Below are positions 2,978 through 11,420 of a stretch of 32,000 nucleotides of DNA, piece after piece (within the stretch, counting starts at the first letter, position 1; each line of letters begins with the position of its first letter). A program made the translations under genes and the position numbers. This DNA comes from Dubosiella newyorkensis. Lineage in GTDB: Bacteria > Bacillota_I > Bacilli_A > Erysipelotrichales > Erysipelotrichaceae. The stretch covers positions 1 through 32,000 of the forward strand of contig NZ_MPKA01000113.1 of NCBI RefSeq assembly GCF_001945605.1, in the 5' to 3' direction. The notes under the pieces were generated by a model. That model saw nothing but the letters and a program-made list of their open reading frames with translations, did not search any database and was not told the origin of the DNA.

Positions 2978-3004
2978 AAAGAGTATCGAAAGATACTCTT
3001 TTTA
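2976..3004. terminator. Bidirectional intrinsic terminator between convergent genes
   Basis: AAAAAGAGTATCgaaaGATACTCTTTTT: a perfect 8-bp stem flanked by an A-run and a T-run. It lies between the plus-strand ABC-F/micro-ORF and the minus-strand PHP phosphatase stop at 3009. Confidence 0.7.
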
Positions 3005-3008
3005 AACA

Positions 3009-3791
3009 TTATAATAGTAATAGGTCGAAGTCTTTAGCGACGTGTTTTGGATAATGGGCATCGCTGGCTGTGATGATCTCTACGCCTTCGTCAAGGAGGA
3101 TCTGGCGGAAAGCTGGATCTAAACCAACATCGTGATGGTGATAGCGATAATGCGCCCCCGTGTTATCTTCCATTTTGACGCGATGCTCCTTAGCGAGCCT
3201 AGCAAGCTGTTTATAGGTTTCTGTAAGATCGTATCCAGCAGGATAATTATACATTTTGATCACGTCAGGATGCCCGATCTGAGTAAAAAGATCGGATTGG
3301 ATCGCTTTTGCGATCCGGTCGTAATAGCGTTTATAGATCGATGAGACATCTTCCTTTTCCCAGAGGAGGTCTTTGGAAAAGGCGTCCATGTCATAGAGGA
3401 GGCCATCGATCGAATGAACGCTTCCGACAAGAAAGTCATAAGGATATTGAGAAAGGATCTCTTTTAGAAAAGATTCGTTTTCTGGAGAATAACACACTTC
3501 TAAACCAAATTGAACATCGATCGGAAAAGACTCGTTTTTCATTTCTTCAATGAGCTTATGATAGTCTTTGATCGAATTGACTTGTTTCTTTTCAAACCAT
3601 TCTTTTTGTCTTGGATCCGCCTCATAGACACCTTTATACATATCGTGGAATTCATAAAATCGATGTGTATGGTCTAAAATCTGCAGATGCTCGATTCCTT
3701 GTTCTTGGGCGGCTTTGACAAATTCCCAAACATATTCTTTGCTCAAAGGGCCATTTTCTAAGTGGACATGGCCATCGGTTTTATTTTTCAT
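3009..3791 (-). CDS. PHP-domain phosphoesterase, histidinol-phosphatase (HisJ/HisK) family
   Basis: 260 aa. It has the N-terminal DGHVH metal motif, then LDHTHRF, GSVHS and ASDAH motifs typical of the PHP / COG1387 fold. Its ATG lies inside the last codons of serA (tATGAAAAATAA), an 11-nt overlap. Confidence 0.8.
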   Translation of the reverse strand: MKNKTDGHVHLENGPLSKEYVWEFVKAAQEQGIEHLQILDHTHRFYEFHDMYKGVYEADPRQKEWFEKKQVNSIKDYHKLIEEMKNESFPIDVQFGLEVCYSPENESFLKEILSQYPYDFLVGSVHSIDGLLYDMDAFSKDLLWEKEDVSSIYKRYYDRIAKAIQSDLFTQIGHPDVIKMYNYPAGYDLTETYKQLARLAKEHRVKMEDNTGAHYRYHHHDVGLDPAFRQILLDEGVEIITASDAHYPKHVAKDFDLLLL

Positions 3792-6326: not shown

Positions 6327-6596
6327 ATGTCAGATTTTTTTAAAAAAGCCGAAGAAGAAATGAAAGAACATTGGGATGACTTGAAAGAAGACGTCGCAAA
6401 AGAGGCGGACAAAATCAAAGCAGATATCGATAAAAAAGAAGCTGAACACAAAGCCAAAGAGGCAGCAGAAAAAGCCAAAGAAGCAGCTAAATCAACGGCT
6501 GAAGCTGCAAAAAGCGCAGCGAAAGACGCAACGAATACTGTAAAAGAAAAAGTAAACGATGCGAAAGACGCAGTAGCCGACAAAGTAAGCAAGTAA
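6327..6596 (+). CDS. Small Lys/Ala/Glu-rich helical protein (YtxH/LEA-like general-stress type)
   Basis: 89 aa starting MSDFFKKAEEEMKEHWDDLKEDVAKEADKIKADIDKKEAEHKAKEAAEKAKEAAK. A strong SD (AAAGGAGAAAAATACC-ATG) precedes it and a terminator follows. The track start at 6267 has no RBS. Confidence 0.55.
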   Translation: MSDFFKKAEEEMKEHWDDLKEDVAKEADKIKADIDKKEAEHKAKEAAEKAKEAAKSTAEAAKSAAKDATNTVKEKVNDAKDAVADKVSK

Positions 6597-7172: not shown

Positions 7173-7557
7173 GGGGATGTTTTTGGCATTCGATAGGTAA
7201 TCGTTTGGGATAGACTACAGCCGTGAAGGAACACGTAAAAACCATTAAAATTTAAACGCTAAAACTAAATTTGCTAACTTGTTTGGTGCTAACCGCCCAG
7301 CAATGGCATTTGCTGCCTAATTAGACTACGTTTGTCTTGCAGCCCGAATTTGTGAGTTCGCTTTCTTATAACAAATTTGAGAATGGCAAAGAAGATCGGA
7401 ACAAGAGTGGATCGGTTCCCTGTTCTTAAACACGTTGATCAAACCCATAAAGTATATTGTCCATCATAGCTTTATGGTTTCTTAGATGGAATAAGCTGTA
7501 AACGTTTATTCGTGGGACGTTATCTAGACAGGAGTTCGAGTCTCCTCATCTCCACCA
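7173..7557 (+). ncRNA. ssrA: tmRNA (transfer-messenger RNA)
   Basis: The 5' end GGGGATGTTTTTGGCATTCGATAGG pairs with the 3' end, which is tRNA-Ala-like: GGACAGGAGTTCGAGTCTCCTCATCTCCACCA. The internal tag reading frame at 7258-7320 gives AKTKFANLFGANRPAMAFAA followed by TAA. The gene is adjacent to smpB. Confidence 0.93.
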
Positions 7558-7621: not shown

Positions 7622-8515
7622 TCATTTATGAAAGATCCGCCATTTTCGGATCACGATGATCTGCACAAAAGTTAAAAGAATACAGAAAACGATACAGGCA
7701 GTATATCCCCAAGGTTGTTTAAGAAGATGCATATTGATGAAGTTCATGCCCAACCATCCTGTGATAAAGGTGAGTGGAGTAAAAATAGAGGTAACGATCG
7801 TCAACAGATTGACTAGATCATTTTGCCGTTCAGAAAGTTTAGCTTGCTTCATATCTAAAACTTGGGTAAGCGATTCTTTTTGCGCATGGGTAATAGAAGC
7901 TAAATGATTCACTCGCTGAATATAGAGTGAAAGAAGCGTTTGCGCTGTCTCGTCTTCACTTTGGATCACTACCTGCTCGATCGTTTGGGCCATATTGGCA
8001 AGCTGCTCATAATAAATAAAGAGCGCGTTGAGCTCATTGCGCATATATAAAAAATCTTGACTCGTATTTGAGATTTTATCGCTCTCCATCTTCGAAGCAA
8101 AATCAGCAAGTGTTTTTTCATATCCTTGCAGAATATATAAGTCTTCGCGAACGAGATACTCCATAAAGTCGAGCAAAAAAAACAAGAGGCGTTTTTATTT
8201 CGTCGTCATAAATATCTTGCATATGGCGGACTTTTTTCGAACTTTAGATCCTTCGTCAATAAAATATAGCTTATTGTTCGTTAAGCAAAAAGCGAACTTA
8301 TTGTGGGAGATCTGCAGATTCTTTTTAGAAGGAATCACGAAAGTACCATAGAGGAGGCCTCTGAAATTGGCGGCTTTACAAAATTCAGGGTTGCTGATGA
8401 CTTTGTAAATATGTTGAACGTGATAGATGGAAGGCTCCTTATTTTTAAATTCTTCAAGCCCTAATATTTCGACTTGTCCTGCATCGGAATCAATCATTTT
8501 ATTTTCATTTTCCAT
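7622..8515 (-). pseudogene. corA: CorA-family Mg2+/Co2+ transporter interrupted by an in-frame TAA
   Basis: The N-terminal part (ATG 8515, SD AAGGAG; MENENKMIDSDAGQVEILGLEEF...) and the C-terminal part (ending ...ITGWLGMNFINM... with the GMN motif and two TM helices) are in the same reading frame. A single TAA at 8197-8195 separates them (...IFMTTK*KRLLFFLLDFMEYLV). The combined length of ~297 codons fits CorA. Confidence 0.7.
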
Positions 8516-8762
8516 AAAACGCAATCTCCTTCTTTTTGTTCTTATTCTTATTATACTTGATTCGAACAAGATAGGACTCGAAGGATGCTATGATTGAAGA
8601 TCTGATGAGTTTTTTTTGTTTATAAACGTTGAGCAATGTGGGCAATCCAAGACTATAGATGGAATGAAATTGATACTTATAAGCATAATAACAGCATAAA
8701 TTAAAAAAGTAGAGTATAATTTGAATTAATGATTTAATTAATCATGTTTTGTTAAAGGAGGA

Positions 8763-10016
8763 ATGCAGTTGAATCTACATAAAAAAGCTTGGAAAATCGC
8801 ATTGGCCTATGTTGGGATCATTGTTGGAGCTGGACTATCATCTGGACAAGATCTCATGCAATACTTCGTGAGTTTTGGCTACAAAGGAATCATCGGTGTC
8901 TTGGGGCTCGCGGCTCTTAATATGATATTTGGCAAAATTATTCTGGGAACTGGCTGCTATTATCATGCCGATAGTCACGATGAAGTGCTAGCCCAAATCG
9001 CACATCCACTCACAAAAAAAATTTTAGACATAACCCTTGTCCTCTCAGGTTTTGTGATCGGGTTTGTTATGATCGCAGGAGCGGGTTCAAATCTACAACA
9101 ACAATTCAACCTTCCTTTCTGGATGGGCGGATTGATCTGCTCATTATTGATCATTTTGGTAAGTTTTTTTGATTTCAAGAAGATCATGAATGTACTTGGA
9201 ATATTCACTCCGATCTTGATCGTGATGATCTTAGGAATTTTCATCTATACATTTTGGGGGAAAACGTACGATTTTAATGAAATGAATGCGATCGCTCAAA
9301 CACTCCCTTCTTCATTACCAAATATTTGGATTTCTGTTCTTAACTATTTTTCTTTATGCGCCATAACAGCTGTTTCGATGGCGTTTATTCTTGGAAGTTC
9401 ATTGGTTCGGATCAAAGTCGCCAAAGAAGGCGGCCTGATCGGAGGCTTTTTGATTGGTCTGATCATTACTTTAGCGACGCTTGTTTTATTCGCGAAAGTC
9501 AATGTCGTCAAAGACGCTCAAATTCCGATGCTCGTCTTAGTGCAACAAATCTCTCCTGTTTTTGCGACCATTTATGCGTTCGTCATTTTCGCTTTGATCT
9601 TCAACACAGCCTTCTCTCTTTTTTATTCGCTCGCTTCACGACTCGCGAAAGGGAATCAAAAGAAAATGCGTCTCTATTTGATCGGATTGGTCATGATCGG
9701 ATACGCTCTAAGCTTCGTCGGTTTCAAACAGCTTATTTCTGGCTTCTATCCTATTTTGGGATATTTAGGAATGGTGTTGCTCGTTGTGTTGCTGAGAAGC
9801 TGGATCGTAAGCCGAAAAGATCGTCAACAAGAACAAAAAGTGCGGCAAAAGCTCGTTAAACTCGCTCAAATAAAACTACATCCAAATAAATATTTTGGAA
9901 AGAAAGAACAAATCGAATATAAACGCTTGGAAAATTTATCAGTCGCTAAAGATGAAAATATAGTTGAAGATATTGAGCAAACTTTGATTCAAGAAGGAGC
10001 GATTCCGAATAGTTGA
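8763..10016 (+). CDS. YkvI-family polytopic membrane protein (putative transporter) with charged C-terminal tail
   Basis: 417 aa. The N-terminal motif AYVGIIVGAGLSSGQDLMQYF resembles YkvI-type proteins. There are ~11 hydrophobic segments and a ~70-aa Lys/Glu/Gln-rich C-terminal extension. An SD (AAAGGAGGA) is present. Confidence 0.7.
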   Translation: MQLNLHKKAWKIALAYVGIIVGAGLSSGQDLMQYFVSFGYKGIIGVLGLAALNMIFGKIILGTGCYYHADSHDEVLAQIAHPLTKKILDITLVLSGFVIGFVMIAGAGSNLQQQFNLPFWMGGLICSLLIILVSFFDFKKIMNVLGIFTPILIVMILGIFIYTFWGKTYDFNEMNAIAQTLPSSLPNIWISVLNYFSLCAITAVSMAFILGSSLVRIKVAKEGGLIGGFLIGLIITLATLVLFAKVNVVKDAQIPMLVLVQQISPVFATIYAFVIFALIFNTAFSLFYSLASRLAKGNQKKMRLYLIGLVMIGYALSFVGFKQLISGFYPILGYLGMVLLVVLLRSWIVSRKDRQQEQKVRQKLVKLAQIKLHPNKYFGKKEQIEYKRLENLSVAKDENIVEDIEQTLIQEGAIPNS

Positions 10017-10473
10017 TCGAAAATCCCACATATAAGACCACTTTGACCACTTGCTTGAAAGAAGGAAAAGAGCGAGTTATTATGAAGGTGCCAAAAGAAA
10101 AGGTTAAAACATAGAAAGAAATCTACAAAGGATCGAAGAAAAAAAGAAAACTTCCTCGACACAAAAGTCGTAAAAATGAACGAGAAGCTCTAGTAAACAA
10201 TGATCAACAGATCATAAAAGCAAGTCTATCGGCTGTAAAGAAAGCGATAGGCTGAAGAAAAAAAGAATGCTAGGCAAGGAAGAAGAAGCCGCGGACAATT
10301 CAAAGTGGAAAAGGCGAAATCGATACCAAGTAGAAGACGATCTATGCAGGATCGAATGAAACGTCTAAAAAAGGACTCGGGTATCGAGGGAAAACAATAA
10401 AAAGAAAATAAGAAATGACGGAAAATCATTCATCCAATAACAAAGAAAAGAGCTCTTTGGAGCTCTTTTTTTT
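10014..10473 (+). repeat. Direct repeat copy A: ~460-nt purine-rich non-coding unit ending in an intrinsic terminator
   Basis: About 95% identical to 10606-11066. Stops occur in all plus-strand frames. Short hairpins lie at 10156-69, 10200-13, 10225-49, 10338-54 and 10376-88. The terminator is AAAAGAGCTCtttgGAGCTCTTTTTTTT at 10446-10473. Confidence 0.9.
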
Positions 10474-10605
10474 ATGCTTAAAAGGCATTGAATCATGAAA
10501 AACTAAGCATTTTACAAATTGTCTGTCCTTTATTTTAATGAGGACGTTAGGAGGAAATGATGTATTGGGCTCGATTGAAAAACGGTGTATGAAAAAAGTT
10601 CCAAG

Positions 10606-11066
10606 TGATCTAAAAATCCCACATATAAGACCACTTTGACCACTTGCTTGAAAGAAGGAAAAGAGCGAGTTATTATGAAGGAGCCAAAAGAAAAGGTTAA
10701 AACATAGAAAGAAATCTACAAAAGGTCGAAGAAAAAAGAAAACTTCCTCGACACAAAAGTCGTAAAAATGAACGAGAAGCTCTAGTAAACAATGATCAAC
10801 AGATCATAAAAGCAAGTCTATCGGCTGTAAAGAAAGCGATGGGCTGAAGAAAAAAAGAATGCTGGGCAAGGAAGAAGAAGCCACGGACAATTCAAAGTGG
10901 AAAAGACGAAATCGATCCCAAGTAGAAAACGATCTATGTAGGATCGAATGAAACGTCAAAAAATAGAACTCGAGTATCGAGGGAAAAACAATAAAAGAAA
11001 ATAAAAAATGACGGAAAATCATTCATCCAATAACAAAGAAAAGAGCTCTTCATAGCTCTTTTTTCT
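10606..11066 (+). repeat. Direct repeat copy B of the same unit, with its own terminator
   Basis: It aligns end-to-end with copy A at an offset of ~592 nt. The copies differ by roughly a dozen substitutions, mostly A/G transitions, and by several 1-nt indels in A-runs. The terminator is AGAGCTcttcatAGCTCTTTTTTC, ending ~11066. Confidence 0.9.
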
Positions 11067-11105
11067 TTGTTTTTCAGCGGTTTTCTGAAAATATTGAAAA
11101 GGAGC

Positions 11106-11134
11106 TTGACTTTGTTTCTTCCGACTTTTATTAT
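11106..11134 (+). promoter_or_regulatory. Sigma-A promoter of the leu operon leader
   Basis: TTGACT (11106-11111), a 17-nt spacer, then TATTAT (11129-11134). Confidence 0.6.
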
Positions 11135-11140
11135 GTTTTT

Positions 11141-11420
11141 ACACGAATTGAATTGAGTATGAATATTCAAAGACGTTGAAGAGGAAATTGAAAGATAGAT
11201 CTCCTTTGTAGAGAGTTGCTGGCAGGTGAAAAGCAACAAGGCCGTATCGTTCATCTCGCCTCGGAGTTGGTGAAGTGAAAAAAGTAATTTCACACGGAAG
11301 CCTACCGTTAAAAGGGAAGCAGTTGTTGGACTGTAAAGAGGTCACACATTGTGGCAATGAGAGTGGTACCGCGGGTTAACTCGTCTCTCAAGGTTTGCCT
11401 TGAAGACGAGTTTTTATTTT
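11141..11420 (+). promoter_or_regulatory. T-box riboswitch leader (leucine-specific) with terminator/antiterminator
   Basis: Stem I elements are AGAGAG (11210-15) and GGTGAAAA (11225-32). The T-box sequence AATGAGAGTGGTACCGCGGG lies at 11356-11375. The terminator is CTCGTCTCTCAAGGtttgCCTTGAAGACGAG followed by TTTTT, at 11379-11420. Candidate CUC (Leu) specifier codons lie at 11255-57 and 11260-62. Confidence 0.85.

What the first reader, a model, noticed from the sequence alone, without database searches (positions are those of the whole stretch)
10014..11066. Pair of ~460-nt purine-rich non-coding direct repeats, each with its own terminator: candidate novel paralogous structured RNAs
Units 10014-10473 and 10606-11066 align over their full length at ~95% identity and are separated by a unique 132-nt spacer.

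They do not look like coding sequence. Stops occur in every plus-strand frame. The copies differ by 1-nt indels in A-runs. The minus-strand ORFs in the track (10226..10429, 10804..11022) lose frame correspondence after ~15 codons.

The plus strand is strongly purine-rich. Long A/G linkers are punctuated by five short GC-containing hairpins: CGACacaaaaGTCG, TGATCaacaGATCA, CTATCG-N13-CGATAG, CGATCtatgcagGATCG and CTCGGgtaTCGAG. Each unit ends in a canonical plus-strand intrinsic terminator.

All three substitutions that fall inside these hairpins are structure-neutral. One changes A-U to G-U in hairpin 3. One changes G-U to A-U in hairpin 5. One lies in the loop of hairpin 4.

The X-spacer-X layout is not what a simple tandem duplication produces. 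Both copies also share ~15 nt with the 3' end of the ykvI-like gene.

I do not recognise the unit as any RNA family I know, but recall is no substitute for a covariance-model search. Its position just upstream of the leu T-box promoter suggests either a long 3' UTR-derived RNA of the ykvI-like gene plus an independently transcribed paralog, or a new regulatory or scaffold RNA.
Basis: seen in the sequence. Interest (0 to 1): 0.7.

Follow-up and report, generated by a model that had tools for sequence, protein, structure and literature searches.

The report
Duplicated non-coding tail of ykvI
A roughly 455-base, purine-rich, non-coding stretch that follows the ykvI gene of the mouse-gut bacterium Dubosiella newyorkensis is present twice in this strain and once in others; it matches no known RNA or protein and shows no evolutionary sign of a conserved RNA structure, so it is at best an untested species-specific small-RNA candidate.

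Summary
Two units (10014-10473 and 10606-11066) are about 95% identical and are separated by a unique 132-nt spacer. They are non-coding and purine-rich, and each ends in an intrinsic terminator.

The host is Dubosiella newyorkensis. I found the unit only between ykvI and the leu T-box of this species. It is absent from sister species (LeuA 85-89% identical), from the contigs that carry the closest YkvI relatives, from 80 other leuA loci, and from the phage, plasmid, viral and metagenome collections. It has no Rfam, Pfam or PHROG match.

Strains carry one or two copies, and the copies are mosaics of each other. This points to unequal crossing-over and gene conversion.

Across 19 distinct unit sequences there is no compensatory base-pair change. 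The 3' half of the unit is the most polymorphic stretch of the locus, at 8-12 segregating sites per 100 nt, against about 1 in the T-box.

Three things favour an RNA: invariant promoter-like hexamers, the terminators, and an unusually low folding energy (z -5 to -8 on the plus strand, -3.4 to -5.1 on the minus strand).

Verdict: this is a strain-variable duplication of a lineage-specific non-coding gene tail. It is a possible orphan sRNA of about 385 nt, not a demonstrated structured RNA family. Interest is low to moderate.

The parts
8763..10016 (+). ykvI-family membrane protein gene (417 aa). Its stop codon TGA (10014-10016) is the first base triplet of repeat unit 1.
   Evidence: ORF. The cluster members are named 'YkvI family membrane protein [Dubosiella newyorkensis]'.
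10014..10473 (+). Repeat unit 1: a non-coding, purine-rich segment that also serves as the 3' flank and terminator region of ykvI.
   Evidence: No Rfam hit. No protein-family hit.
10055..10083 (+). Sigma-70-type promoter-like site inside unit 1 (TTGAAA, 17 nt, TATTAT). It would start a transcript near 10090, giving about 384 nt to the terminator.
   Evidence: 10 of 12 matches. Both hexamers are invariant in all 19 distinct unit sequences. Function is not tested.
10130..10250 (+). Conserved core holding hairpins 1-3 (CGAC/GTCG, UGAUC/GAUCA, CUAUCG/CGAUAG) and a CUUCCUC pyrimidine motif. It is the least variable part of the unit.
   Evidence: Alignment A1 columns 121-228 have 2 variable columns. 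The overlapping sub-window 10150-10270 has folding z=-3.5, with 0 of 200 shuffles as stable.
10251..10440 (+). Variable 3' half of unit 1, holding hairpins 4 and 5. It has the highest density of segregating sites at the locus.
   Evidence: 8.4 segregating sites per 100 nt in unit 1 and 12.1 in unit 2, against 1.0-1.3 in the T-box.
10442..10473 (+). Intrinsic terminator of unit 1 and ykvI: GAGCUC-UUUG-GAGCUC followed by U8, preceded by an A-run that can pair with the U-tract.
   Evidence: Sequence. Terminal 14-bp helix in the minimum-energy fold. Inverted repeat I9.
10474..10605 (+). Unique 132-nt spacer, present only in two-copy strains. It contains AGGAGG followed by a mini-ORF (10558-10593) whose length varies between strains.
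   Evidence: Similarity to the region after unit 2 (leu promoter and T-box start) is weak and not significant.
10606..11066 (+). Repeat unit 2, about 95% identical to unit 1. It carries its own promoter-like site (10648-10676) and terminator (11037-11064).
11106..11134 (+). Promoter-like site of the leu operon leader (TTGACT, 17 nt, TATTAT). Context only.
11167..11391 (+). T-box leader of the leuABCD operon. Context only; not part of the repeat.
   Evidence: Rfam RF00230, 121.5 bits against a gathering score of 93. It is conserved at 74-85% in sister species that lack the unit.

Best explanation
The unit is a non-coding sequence specific to Dubosiella newyorkensis. It forms the 3' flank of ykvI and ends in the intrinsic terminator that stops ykvI transcription ahead of the leu T-box promoter.

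In this strain a segment of about 593 bp (the unit plus a 132-nt junction) is present twice. The species is polymorphic for one or two copies. The copies exchange sequence by gene conversion and unequal crossing-over, which explains the mosaic alleles and the high local polymorphism.

Shown:
- the sequence is non-coding;
- it is restricted to one locus of one species;
- copy number varies between strains;
- the alleles are mosaics;
- there is no covariation.

Inferred:
- the unit is transcribed at least as a ykvI 3' UTR;
- because each copy also carries invariant promoter-like hexamers, it may additionally give an independent RNA of about 385 nt.

I find no evidence that such an RNA needs a conserved structure or that two copies are required.
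For: The repeat and its anatomy are.

Copy number:
- The ykvI-leuA spacing is 846 nt or about 1434-1440 nt, a difference of 593 nt.
- Single-copy alleles join the left flank of unit 1 to a unit-2-type terminator loop, and their internal variants are mosaic.
- Logan k=31 contigs run straight through a single unit in some samples (L006, L007, L129). In others they break 43 nt after the ykvI stop codon (L101-L105, L107, L108). This argues that both states are real.
- In strains L002 and L009 the two copies are nearly identical to each other, which indicates gene conversion.

Absence elsewhere:
- contigs carrying the closest YkvI relatives, at 67-71% identity;
- 80 leuA loci;
- sister species with LeuA 85-89% identical, whose T-box is conserved;
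- phages and plasmids;
- viral contigs;
- metagenome contigs, where only two D. newyorkensis contigs matched.

Constraint and structure:
- Segregating sites per 100 nt are 1.8-5 in the unit 5' half, 8.4-12.1 in the 3' half, 4.5 in the spacer, 1.0-1.3 in the T-box and 0.6-2.0 in leuA.
- There are 0 compensatory pairs.
- The hairpin count is at background.
Against: - Folding energy is unusually low. For the full unit z is -4.8 and -5.2. Without the terminator z is -5.1 and -8.4 on the plus strand and -3.4 and -4.5 on the minus strand. It stays at -5.1 and -7.8 with shuffles that preserve local composition, while background windows lie between -3.3 and +1.6. This fits a structured RNA, although the minus strand scores nearly as low and the known T-box and tmRNA score only -1.8 and -1.4 in the same test.
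- The promoter-like hexamers and the 120-nt core are invariant in all 19 sequences.
- Every strain seen keeps at least one unit, including a lineage whose ykvI differs from the window's at 45 of 1254 positions (3.6%).
- The origin of the 132-nt spacer is unexplained.
Confidence: 0.55

Rival explanations
1. The unit is an orphan regulatory small-RNA gene, duplicated in some strains. Each unit would be an independent transcription unit, with the promoter at 10055-10083 or 10648-10676 and its own terminator. The product would be a purine-rich RNA of about 385 nt whose conserved 5' core (three hairpins and a CUUCCUC motif) acts on mRNAs or binds a protein.
For: - Promoter-like hexamers score 10 of 12 and are invariant in all 19 sequences.
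- Each unit has an intrinsic terminator.
- Folding z is -5 to -8 and is somewhat stronger on the plus strand.
- The core sub-window has z=-3.5.
- The core is as conserved as the T-box.
- One-sided changes in predicted stems are mostly wobble-neutral on the plus strand.
Against: - There is no covariation, and none could be expected at 95-99% identity.
- The wobble-neutral pattern is expected for transitions on an A-rich strand, and RNAalifold is biased towards it.
- The 3' half evolves faster than neighbouring coding and non-coding DNA.
- One copy is dispensable.
- No homolog exists outside the species.
- GGA and anti-SD motifs are not enriched.
- A target scan against translation-initiation regions in the window was uninformative.
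- No expression data are available.
Confidence: 0.28
2. The unit is the decayed remnant of a small lysine-rich protein gene, starting at ATG 10084 and read in the frame of MKVPKEKVKT*KEIYKGSKKKRKLPRHKSRKNEREALVNNDQQIIKASLSAVKKAIG*. It would have been pseudogenised before the duplication.
For: - One plus-strand frame has only five stops in unit 1.
- The same frame is consistently the best-scoring one. Its codon-usage score is about 0, between the off-frame mean of -0.25 and the true-coding mean of +0.22.
- The purine richness resembles that of the genuine Lys/Glu-rich gene at 6327-6596.
Against: - Conceptual translations have no Pfam or PHROG hit.
- phmmer of the longest open stretch against 1.84 billion representatives found only P0140. 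That entry is the same locus with TAG translated as Gln, and its DNA (L132) has TAG.
- There is no similarity to YkvI C-terminal tails or to anything else in the window by tblastx.
- The stops are shared by all 19 sequences.
- The codon score is below the 5th percentile of real coding windows.
Confidence: 0.1
3. The unit is a mobile or repetitive element (MITE-like, an IS or prophage remnant, or attachment-site repeats) that has landed twice downstream of ykvI, near the tmRNA gene.
For: - The locus lies about 2.5 kb from tmRNA, which is a common integration site (own knowledge).
- A related lineage carries a large serine recombinase gene next to corA.
- The ykvI-plus-unit block is absent upstream of the leu operon in sister species.
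Against: - There are no terminal inverted repeats or target-site duplications; the only inverted repeats are the terminators.
- There is no other copy in the 32-kb window, in about 100 other fetched loci, or in phage, plasmid, viral or metagenome collections.
- No repeat of the tmRNA 3' end was found.
Confidence: 0.04
4. The duplication, or the single-copy state, is an assembly artefact.
For: - Most sequences are short-read metagenome-assembled genomes.
- One assembly has an N-gap inside unit 2 (L125).
- Many contigs end inside the repeat.
Against: - The two-copy arrangement recurs in independent assemblies made with different assemblers, and the two copies differ consistently, for example in the terminator loop UUGG against UCAU.
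- Single-copy contigs occur in k=31 Logan assemblies, which could not traverse a two-copy repeat without branching.
Confidence: 0.03

Closest known systems
Species-specific (orphan) sRNAs and 3'-UTR-derived sRNAs of Firmicutes, including long multi-hairpin regulators such as Staphylococcus aureus RNAIII (own knowledge)
   Same: - It lies downstream of a gene and ends at that gene's intrinsic terminator.
- It has a possible internal promoter.
- It is several hundred nucleotides long, with several short hairpins.
- Its phylogenetic range is narrow.
   Different: - No transcript has been shown.
- The hairpin loops carry no C-rich or UCCC seed motifs, and no such motif is enriched.
- No embedded peptide gene is conserved between the copies.
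- It matches no Rfam model.
Tandemly duplicated sRNA paralogs, such as Listeria LhrC1-5 and streptococcal csRNAs (own knowledge)
   Same: It consists of head-to-tail copies, each with its own promoter-like site and terminator, separated by short spacers.
   Different: - The units are 3-4 times longer.
- The copies are 95-99% identical.
- Copy number is not fixed in the species, so this is a polymorphic duplication rather than an established paralog family.
Large ornate non-coding RNAs of Firmicutes in Rfam (OLE, ROOL, GOLLD, HEARO, raiA)
   Same: Size class (about 400-600 nt) and low predicted folding energy.
   Different: - No model matches, even at E<=10.
- Those families are defined by extensive covariation across many genera. 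This element occurs in one species and shows none.
Segmental duplication and copy-number polymorphism maintained by unequal homologous recombination and gene conversion (general mechanism, own knowledge)
   Same: - Alleles with one and two copies differ by exactly one 593-nt period.
- Single-copy alleles are mosaics.
- The two copies are homogenised in some strains.
   Different: A simple tandem duplication would give 2 x 593 nt of contiguous similarity. Here 132 nt of each period has no recognisable counterpart, so a junction insertion, a replacement, or strong divergence of one segment must be assumed.

Membership tests
Any Rfam 15 RNA family | A covariance-model score at or above the family's gathering threshold | tested here: not met
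   In the gathering run only the T-box (11167-11391) and tmRNA (7173-7557) passed. At E<=10 on 9900-11200, the best match within the two units is STnc320, at 31.7 bits against a threshold of 50, and it lies on the terminator hairpin.
All shuffle controls equal the observed values. Power is very low because mean column identity is 98%.
   None found. A complete D. newyorkensis genome could not be scanned.
   Plus-strand z is -4.8 to -8.4. However, the minus strand reaches -3.4 to -5.1, and the known T-box and tmRNA score only -1.8 and -1.4 in the same test. The measure is therefore weak evidence.
Independent sRNA gene | Its own promoter, a discrete 5' end and a terminator | tested here: inconclusive
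   Consensus-like hexamers (10 of 12) and terminators are present and invariant. Promoter-like sites are generally frequent in this AT-rich stretch, with 11 found against 2.7 expected. No expression data are available.
Rho-independent (intrinsic) terminator | A GC-containing stem-loop followed directly by a U-tract on the transcribed strand | tested here: met
   Unit 1 has GAGCUC-UUUG-GAGCUC followed by U8. Unit 2 has an 11-pair stem at 11037-11064 followed by a T-rich tail.
Protein-coding gene or recognisable pseudogene | An open frame conserved between copies, or similarity of a translated frame to a known protein | tested here: not met
   There are stops in all frames and frame-shifting indels. 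Pfam, PHROGs, a word search and a 1.84-billion-protein phmmer search gave no hit other than a mis-translated self match. The codon score is about 0.
Simple tandem duplication | Two adjacent copies similar over the whole period | tested here: not met
   The period is 593 nt but only about 460-490 nt is similar. The spacer has no significant match to the ykvI 3' end or to the sequence after unit 2.
Miniature or other mobile element | Terminal inverted repeats, target-site duplication, and multiple dispersed copies | tested here: not met
   The only inverted repeats are the terminator hairpins. No dispersed copies were found.
Diversity-generating retroelement template/variable repeat pair | Adenine-specific differences between the repeats and a nearby reverse transcriptase | tested here: not met
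   The differences are mostly G/A transitions in both directions plus other types. The genes called in the 21-kb neighbourhood have no reverse-transcriptase domain.
CsrB/RsmZ-type protein-sponge RNA | Many GGA motifs, enriched and presented in hairpin loops | tested here: not met
   GGA occurs 10 times against 10.1 expected in unit 1, and 8 times against 8.6 in unit 2.
Type I toxin-antitoxin locus | A conserved small hydrophobic peptide ORF with an overlapping antisense RNA | tested here: not met
   The minus-strand ORFs diverge by frameshift after about 10-15 codons between the copies. The 72-aa ORF has no relatives.

The most novel reading that the evidence does not exclude
Each unit is an independently transcribed, purine-rich regulatory RNA of about 385 nt, of a class not yet described and so far confined to Dubosiella newyorkensis. 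A long-range helix (about 10110-10137 with 10320-10346) would enclose a conserved three-hairpin core. Gene dosage would vary between gut strains through unequal recombination.
Probability: 0.2. Interest if true: 0.5.

Novelty: new member of a known kind. Interest (0 to 1): 0.25.

Why it matters
If the unit proves to be an expressed regulatory RNA, it would be one of the first sRNA candidates in Erysipelotrichaceae. This family of mouse-gut commensals has essentially no RNA biology described. It would also be an example of sRNA dosage varying between strains.

As the evidence stands, the main value is cautionary. A striking purine-rich repeat with hairpins and terminators turned out to be a species-restricted, copy-number-polymorphic gene tail. 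Its hairpins are no more frequent than the genomic background, and its sequence is not detectably constrained over half its length.

The locus also explains why many D. newyorkensis metagenome assemblies break just after ykvI.

Tried and rejected
1. Known RNA family: rejected by Rfam at the gathering threshold and at E<=10.
2. Pseudogene of a known protein:
   - Pfam and PHROGs gave nothing on three stop-masked frames.
   - A word-index search with the 72-aa minus-strand ORF gave nothing.
   - phmmer of the 46-aa open stretch against 1.84 billion representatives gave only P0140. This looked like an intact ORF in another strain, but its DNA (L132) has TAG at the 'Q' codon, so it is a gene-calling artefact.
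   - tblastn of 139 YkvI-family proteins against the units gave nothing.
3. Homologs by synteny: none at the loci of the closest YkvI relatives, at 80 leuA loci or in sister species.
4. Homologs by DNA pattern:
   - An exact 30-mer in species-representative genomes gave 0 hits. The D. newyorkensis representative was apparently not reached or lacks the region, so this negative is weak.
   - A hairpin-stem pattern gave only chance matches in metagenome and viral contigs, apart from two D. newyorkensis contigs.
5. Phage or plasmid origin: none. Two Vibrio plasmids matched only a 26-nt terminator-like stretch.
6. Spacer as a diverged copy of the ykvI 3' end or of the leu promoter region: not significant.
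7. GATC/ATCG motif enrichment as a binding-site array: rejected, because GATC occurs at 15.8 per kb across the whole window.
8. CsrA-sponge, anti-SD and DGR ideas: rejected.
9. Target prediction against translation-initiation regions in the window: uninformative, with best energy -38.5 against a null of -32 +/- 2.5 and low-complexity pairing.
10. Island boundary at tmRNA: no direct repeat of the tmRNA 3' end was found.
Full report
**1. The observation**

The repeat is real. The repeat finder returns three in-register blocks with spacing 592-593: 10020-10149/10613-10742 (96%), 10140-10371/10732-10963 (97%) and 10367-10479/10960-11072 (88%). blastn gives 95.4% identity over 454 nt. A global alignment shows that similarity begins at the ykvI stop codon (TGATCGAAAATCCC against TGATCTAAAAATCCC). 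The copies differ by about 20 substitutions and four single-base indels. Similarity decays within about 10-30 nt after the T-run of each terminator. The 132-nt spacer has no second copy.

The units are 45% A and 21% G, against 29% and 24% for the window. Together with a genuine Lys/Glu-rich gene at 6327-6596, they are the most purine-skewed 300-nt windows in the 32 kb. Every plus-strand frame has stops. The minus-strand ORFs 10226-10429 and 10804-11022 share only their first residues.

Each unit contains TTGAAA-17-TATTAT (10055-10083 and 10648-10676) and ends in a terminator. Unit 1 has GAGCUC-UUUG-GAGCUC followed by U8. Unit 2 has a weaker stem followed by U6.

**2. Organism and distribution**

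The YkvI protein belongs to a cluster whose named members are all Dubosiella newyorkensis. Looking up contigs that encode this protein and its near-identical alleles gave 30 loci with the same neighbourhood: smpB, tmRNA, a corA-like gene, ykvI, the unit(s), the leu T-box and leuABCD.

I found the unit nowhere else.
- The closest YkvI relatives (67-71% identity) sit in other contexts and are followed by an ordinary terminator or other genes.
- A profile of the units found nothing in 80 leuA loci of Erysipelotrichaceae and Clostridia.
- It found nothing in sister lineages whose LeuA is 85-89% identical. Their leu T-box is recognisably conserved at 74-85%, but it is preceded by other genes.
- Phage and plasmid collections gave no real match.
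- A stem-anchored pattern gave only chance hits in viral contigs.
- Among metagenome contigs, only two D. newyorkensis contigs matched.
- An exact 30-mer had no hit in species-representative genomes.

**3. Not a known RNA, not a recognisable protein**

Rfam finds only the T-box (11167-11391) and tmRNA (7173-7557) in the window. With relaxed thresholds, the only sub-threshold matches of any strength on the units sit on the terminator hairpins.

Stop-masked translations of the three plus-strand frames hit nothing in Pfam or PHROGs. The 72-aa minus-strand ORF has no relatives. The longest open plus-strand stretch (46 aa, 10115-10252) was searched with phmmer against 1.84 billion representative proteins. 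It hit a single 57-aa entry, P0140. P0140 reads MKVPKEKVKTQKEIY..., which would be an intact ORF. However, the contig that carries it has TAG at the Q position, and the tool reports that the gene does not translate to the query. It is a gene call made with the wrong code, not an intact allele.

YkvI-family C-terminal tails do not match the units. A codon-usage log-odds profile puts the best frame of the unit at about 0. True coding windows average +0.22 +/- 0.11, off-frames average -0.25, and the Lys/Glu-rich gene scores 0.2-0.4. An ancient pseudogene cannot be excluded, but nothing supports it.

**4. Copy number is polymorphic and the copies recombine**

The ykvI-leuA spacing is either 846 nt (one unit) or about 1434-1440 nt (two units plus the spacer). 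The difference is one 593-nt period.

Single-copy alleles have the ykvI-side junction of unit 1 and the terminator loop and downstream junction of unit 2. Their internal variants are mosaics of the two types, and there are at least three distinct single-copy sequences. In strains L002 and L009 the two copies are almost identical to each other, whereas in this window they differ at about 5% of positions. This is the signature of gene conversion.

The two states are unlikely to be assembly artefacts.
- k=31 Logan contigs traverse a single unit without branching in some samples (L006, L007, L129).
- In a related lineage, seven independent Logan contigs all stop 43 nt after the ykvI stop codon. 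That is where a two-copy repeat would make the assembly graph branch.
- Two-copy contigs come from several assemblers.
- One assembly does have an N-gap in unit 2 and a 14-nt deletion in unit 1, so individual contigs should be read with care.

**5. Is there selection on an RNA structure?**

I aligned 19 distinct unit sequences; mean column identity is 98%. RNAalifold predicts 113 pairs, none with a compensatory change. Five changes are one-sided and wobble-neutral, and two break a pair. Every shuffle control equals the observed value.

Most changes are transitions. On an A- and C-majority basis, A-to-G and C-to-U changes always remain pairable. RNAalifold also avoids pairs that are inconsistent between sequences.

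Perfect hairpins of at least 5 bp number 4 per unit. The mean across all 420-nt windows of this sequence is 5.1 (sd 2.4), and 73% of those windows have at least 4. Against shuffles of the unit, p=0.13. The GATC and ATCG cores of the hairpins reflect a window-wide excess, with GATC at 15.8 per kb.

Polymorphism among two-copy strains, in segregating sites per 100 nt:

| Region | Sites per 100 nt |
|---|---|
| Unit 5' half | 1.8-5.0 |
| Unit 3' half | 8.4-12.1 |
| Unit terminators | 12-19 |
| Spacer | 4.5 |
| ykvI body | 4-6.4 |
| T-box leader | 1.0-1.3 |
| leuA | 0.6-2.0 |

The 3' half therefore behaves as unconstrained sequence inflated by exchange between the copies. Only the first half, meaning the promoter-like region plus the 10130-10250 core, is as conserved as its surroundings.

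**6. What does favour an RNA**

Predicted folding energy is clearly lower than for shuffled sequence.
- For whole units, z is -4.8 and -5.2 on the plus strand and -3.6 on the minus strand.
- Without the terminator, z is -5.1 and -8.4 on the plus strand and -3.4 and -4.5 on the minus strand.
- With shuffles that preserve composition in 30-nt blocks, z is still -5.1 and -7.8 on the plus strand. Eleven background windows range from -3.3 to +1.6.
- The signal comes from the three-hairpin core (z=-3.5) and from long-range pairing, for example columns 90-116 with 300-326 of the alignment.

Three caveats apply.
- The minus strand is nearly as extreme.
- The bona fide T-box and tmRNA score only -1.8 and -1.4 in the same test.
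- The long-range helix is broken at one pair in 4 of 19 sequences, without compensation.

The promoter-like hexamers are invariant. Every strain keeps at least one unit.

**7. Best explanation and rivals**

Most likely (0.55): this is a non-coding 3' flank and terminator region of ykvI, specific to D. newyorkensis. It is duplicated as a 593-bp segment in some strains and kept in flux by unequal crossing-over and gene conversion. It has no demonstrated function beyond terminating transcription ahead of the leu leader.

| Rival | Confidence |
|---|---|
| Genuine orphan sRNA of about 385 nt per unit | 0.28 |
| Decayed Lys-rich gene | 0.10 |
| Mobile or repetitive element | 0.04 |
| Assembly artefact | 0.03 |

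The first two readings overlap. The descriptive part (non-coding, orphan, polymorphic duplication) is well supported. Whether the transcript has a function is open.

The origin of the spacer is not explained. It is not significantly similar to the ykvI 3' end or to the sequence after unit 2 (p of about 0.06-0.17). Its AGGAGG-plus-mini-ORF is not conserved in length between strains.

**8. Comparison with what is known, and verdict**

The element resembles orphan or 3'-UTR-derived sRNAs and tandem sRNA paralogs in layout. It fails the tests that define a conserved structured RNA family, because it has neither homologs nor covariation. It is not a member of any Rfam family. It is also not a simple tandem duplication, a MITE, a DGR repeat pair, a CsrB-like sponge or a type I toxin-antitoxin locus (see the membership table).

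I rate it a new member of a known kind: a species-specific non-coding repeat and sRNA candidate. Interest is 0.25. The most novel reading still open is a new purine-rich regulatory RNA with strain-variable dosage. I give that a probability of about 0.2 and an interest of about 0.5 if true. Expression data would settle it quickly.

Noticed in passing
window 6327-6596 (+): A small gene for an 89-aa Lys/Glu/Ala-rich protein lies just upstream of smpB. It is as purine-rich as the repeat units but has a clean ORF and a clear coding score. Its Pfam similarities are weak and sub-threshold (YtxH and apolipoprotein-like). It served as an internal contrast to the units.
   Followed up: partly
window 7622-8569 (-); L099:230-2766: The corA-like gene next to tmRNA is split into two ORFs (187 aa and 124 aa) in this strain. 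In a related lineage it is intact (300 aa), and there a large serine recombinase gene (Resolvase/Recombinase/Zn_ribbon_recom) lies beside it. This suggests an integrated element between tmRNA and corA in that lineage.
   Followed up: no
whole window: GATC occurs 15.8 times per kb, about four times the expectation from base composition. ATCG and CGAT occur about 11 times per kb. This window-wide bias accounts for the GATC-centred palindromes inside the units.
   Followed up: partly
L132:144-317 (protein P0140): A public protein entry of 57 aa derives from the unit with an in-frame TAG translated as Gln. The underlying DNA has TAG, so the entry is a gene-calling artefact in ENA sample ERZ13641597. 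It could mislead a homology search into seeing an intact ORF.
   Followed up: yes
window 10550-10593 (+), inside the spacer: A strong Shine-Dalgarno-like AGGAGG is followed by ATGATG and an 11-codon ORF (MMYWARLKNGV). In other strains the stop codon is lost and the ORF runs on to 18 codons, so it does not look conserved.
   Followed up: partly
L101-L105, L107, L108 (contig ends); L006, L007, L129: Logan k=31 contigs of one D. newyorkensis lineage all end 43 nt after the ykvI stop codon, which is a repeat-induced break. Others run through a single unit. The repeat is a systematic breakpoint in metagenome assemblies of this species.
   Followed up: yes
window 3001-3420: This 420-nt window had a folding z-score of -5.8 on the plus strand and -3.3 on the minus strand in the background scan. 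It was the only background window comparable to the units. It lies near the 3' end of the PHP-domain gene.
   Followed up: no
window 10211-10239 and 10803-10831 (-): Promoter-like sites on the minus strand (TTTACA-17-TATGAT) lie inside the conserved core of each unit, with a weak terminator-like hairpin about 60-80 nt downstream (10752-10725 in unit 2). A short antisense transcript is conceivable but untested.
   Followed up: no
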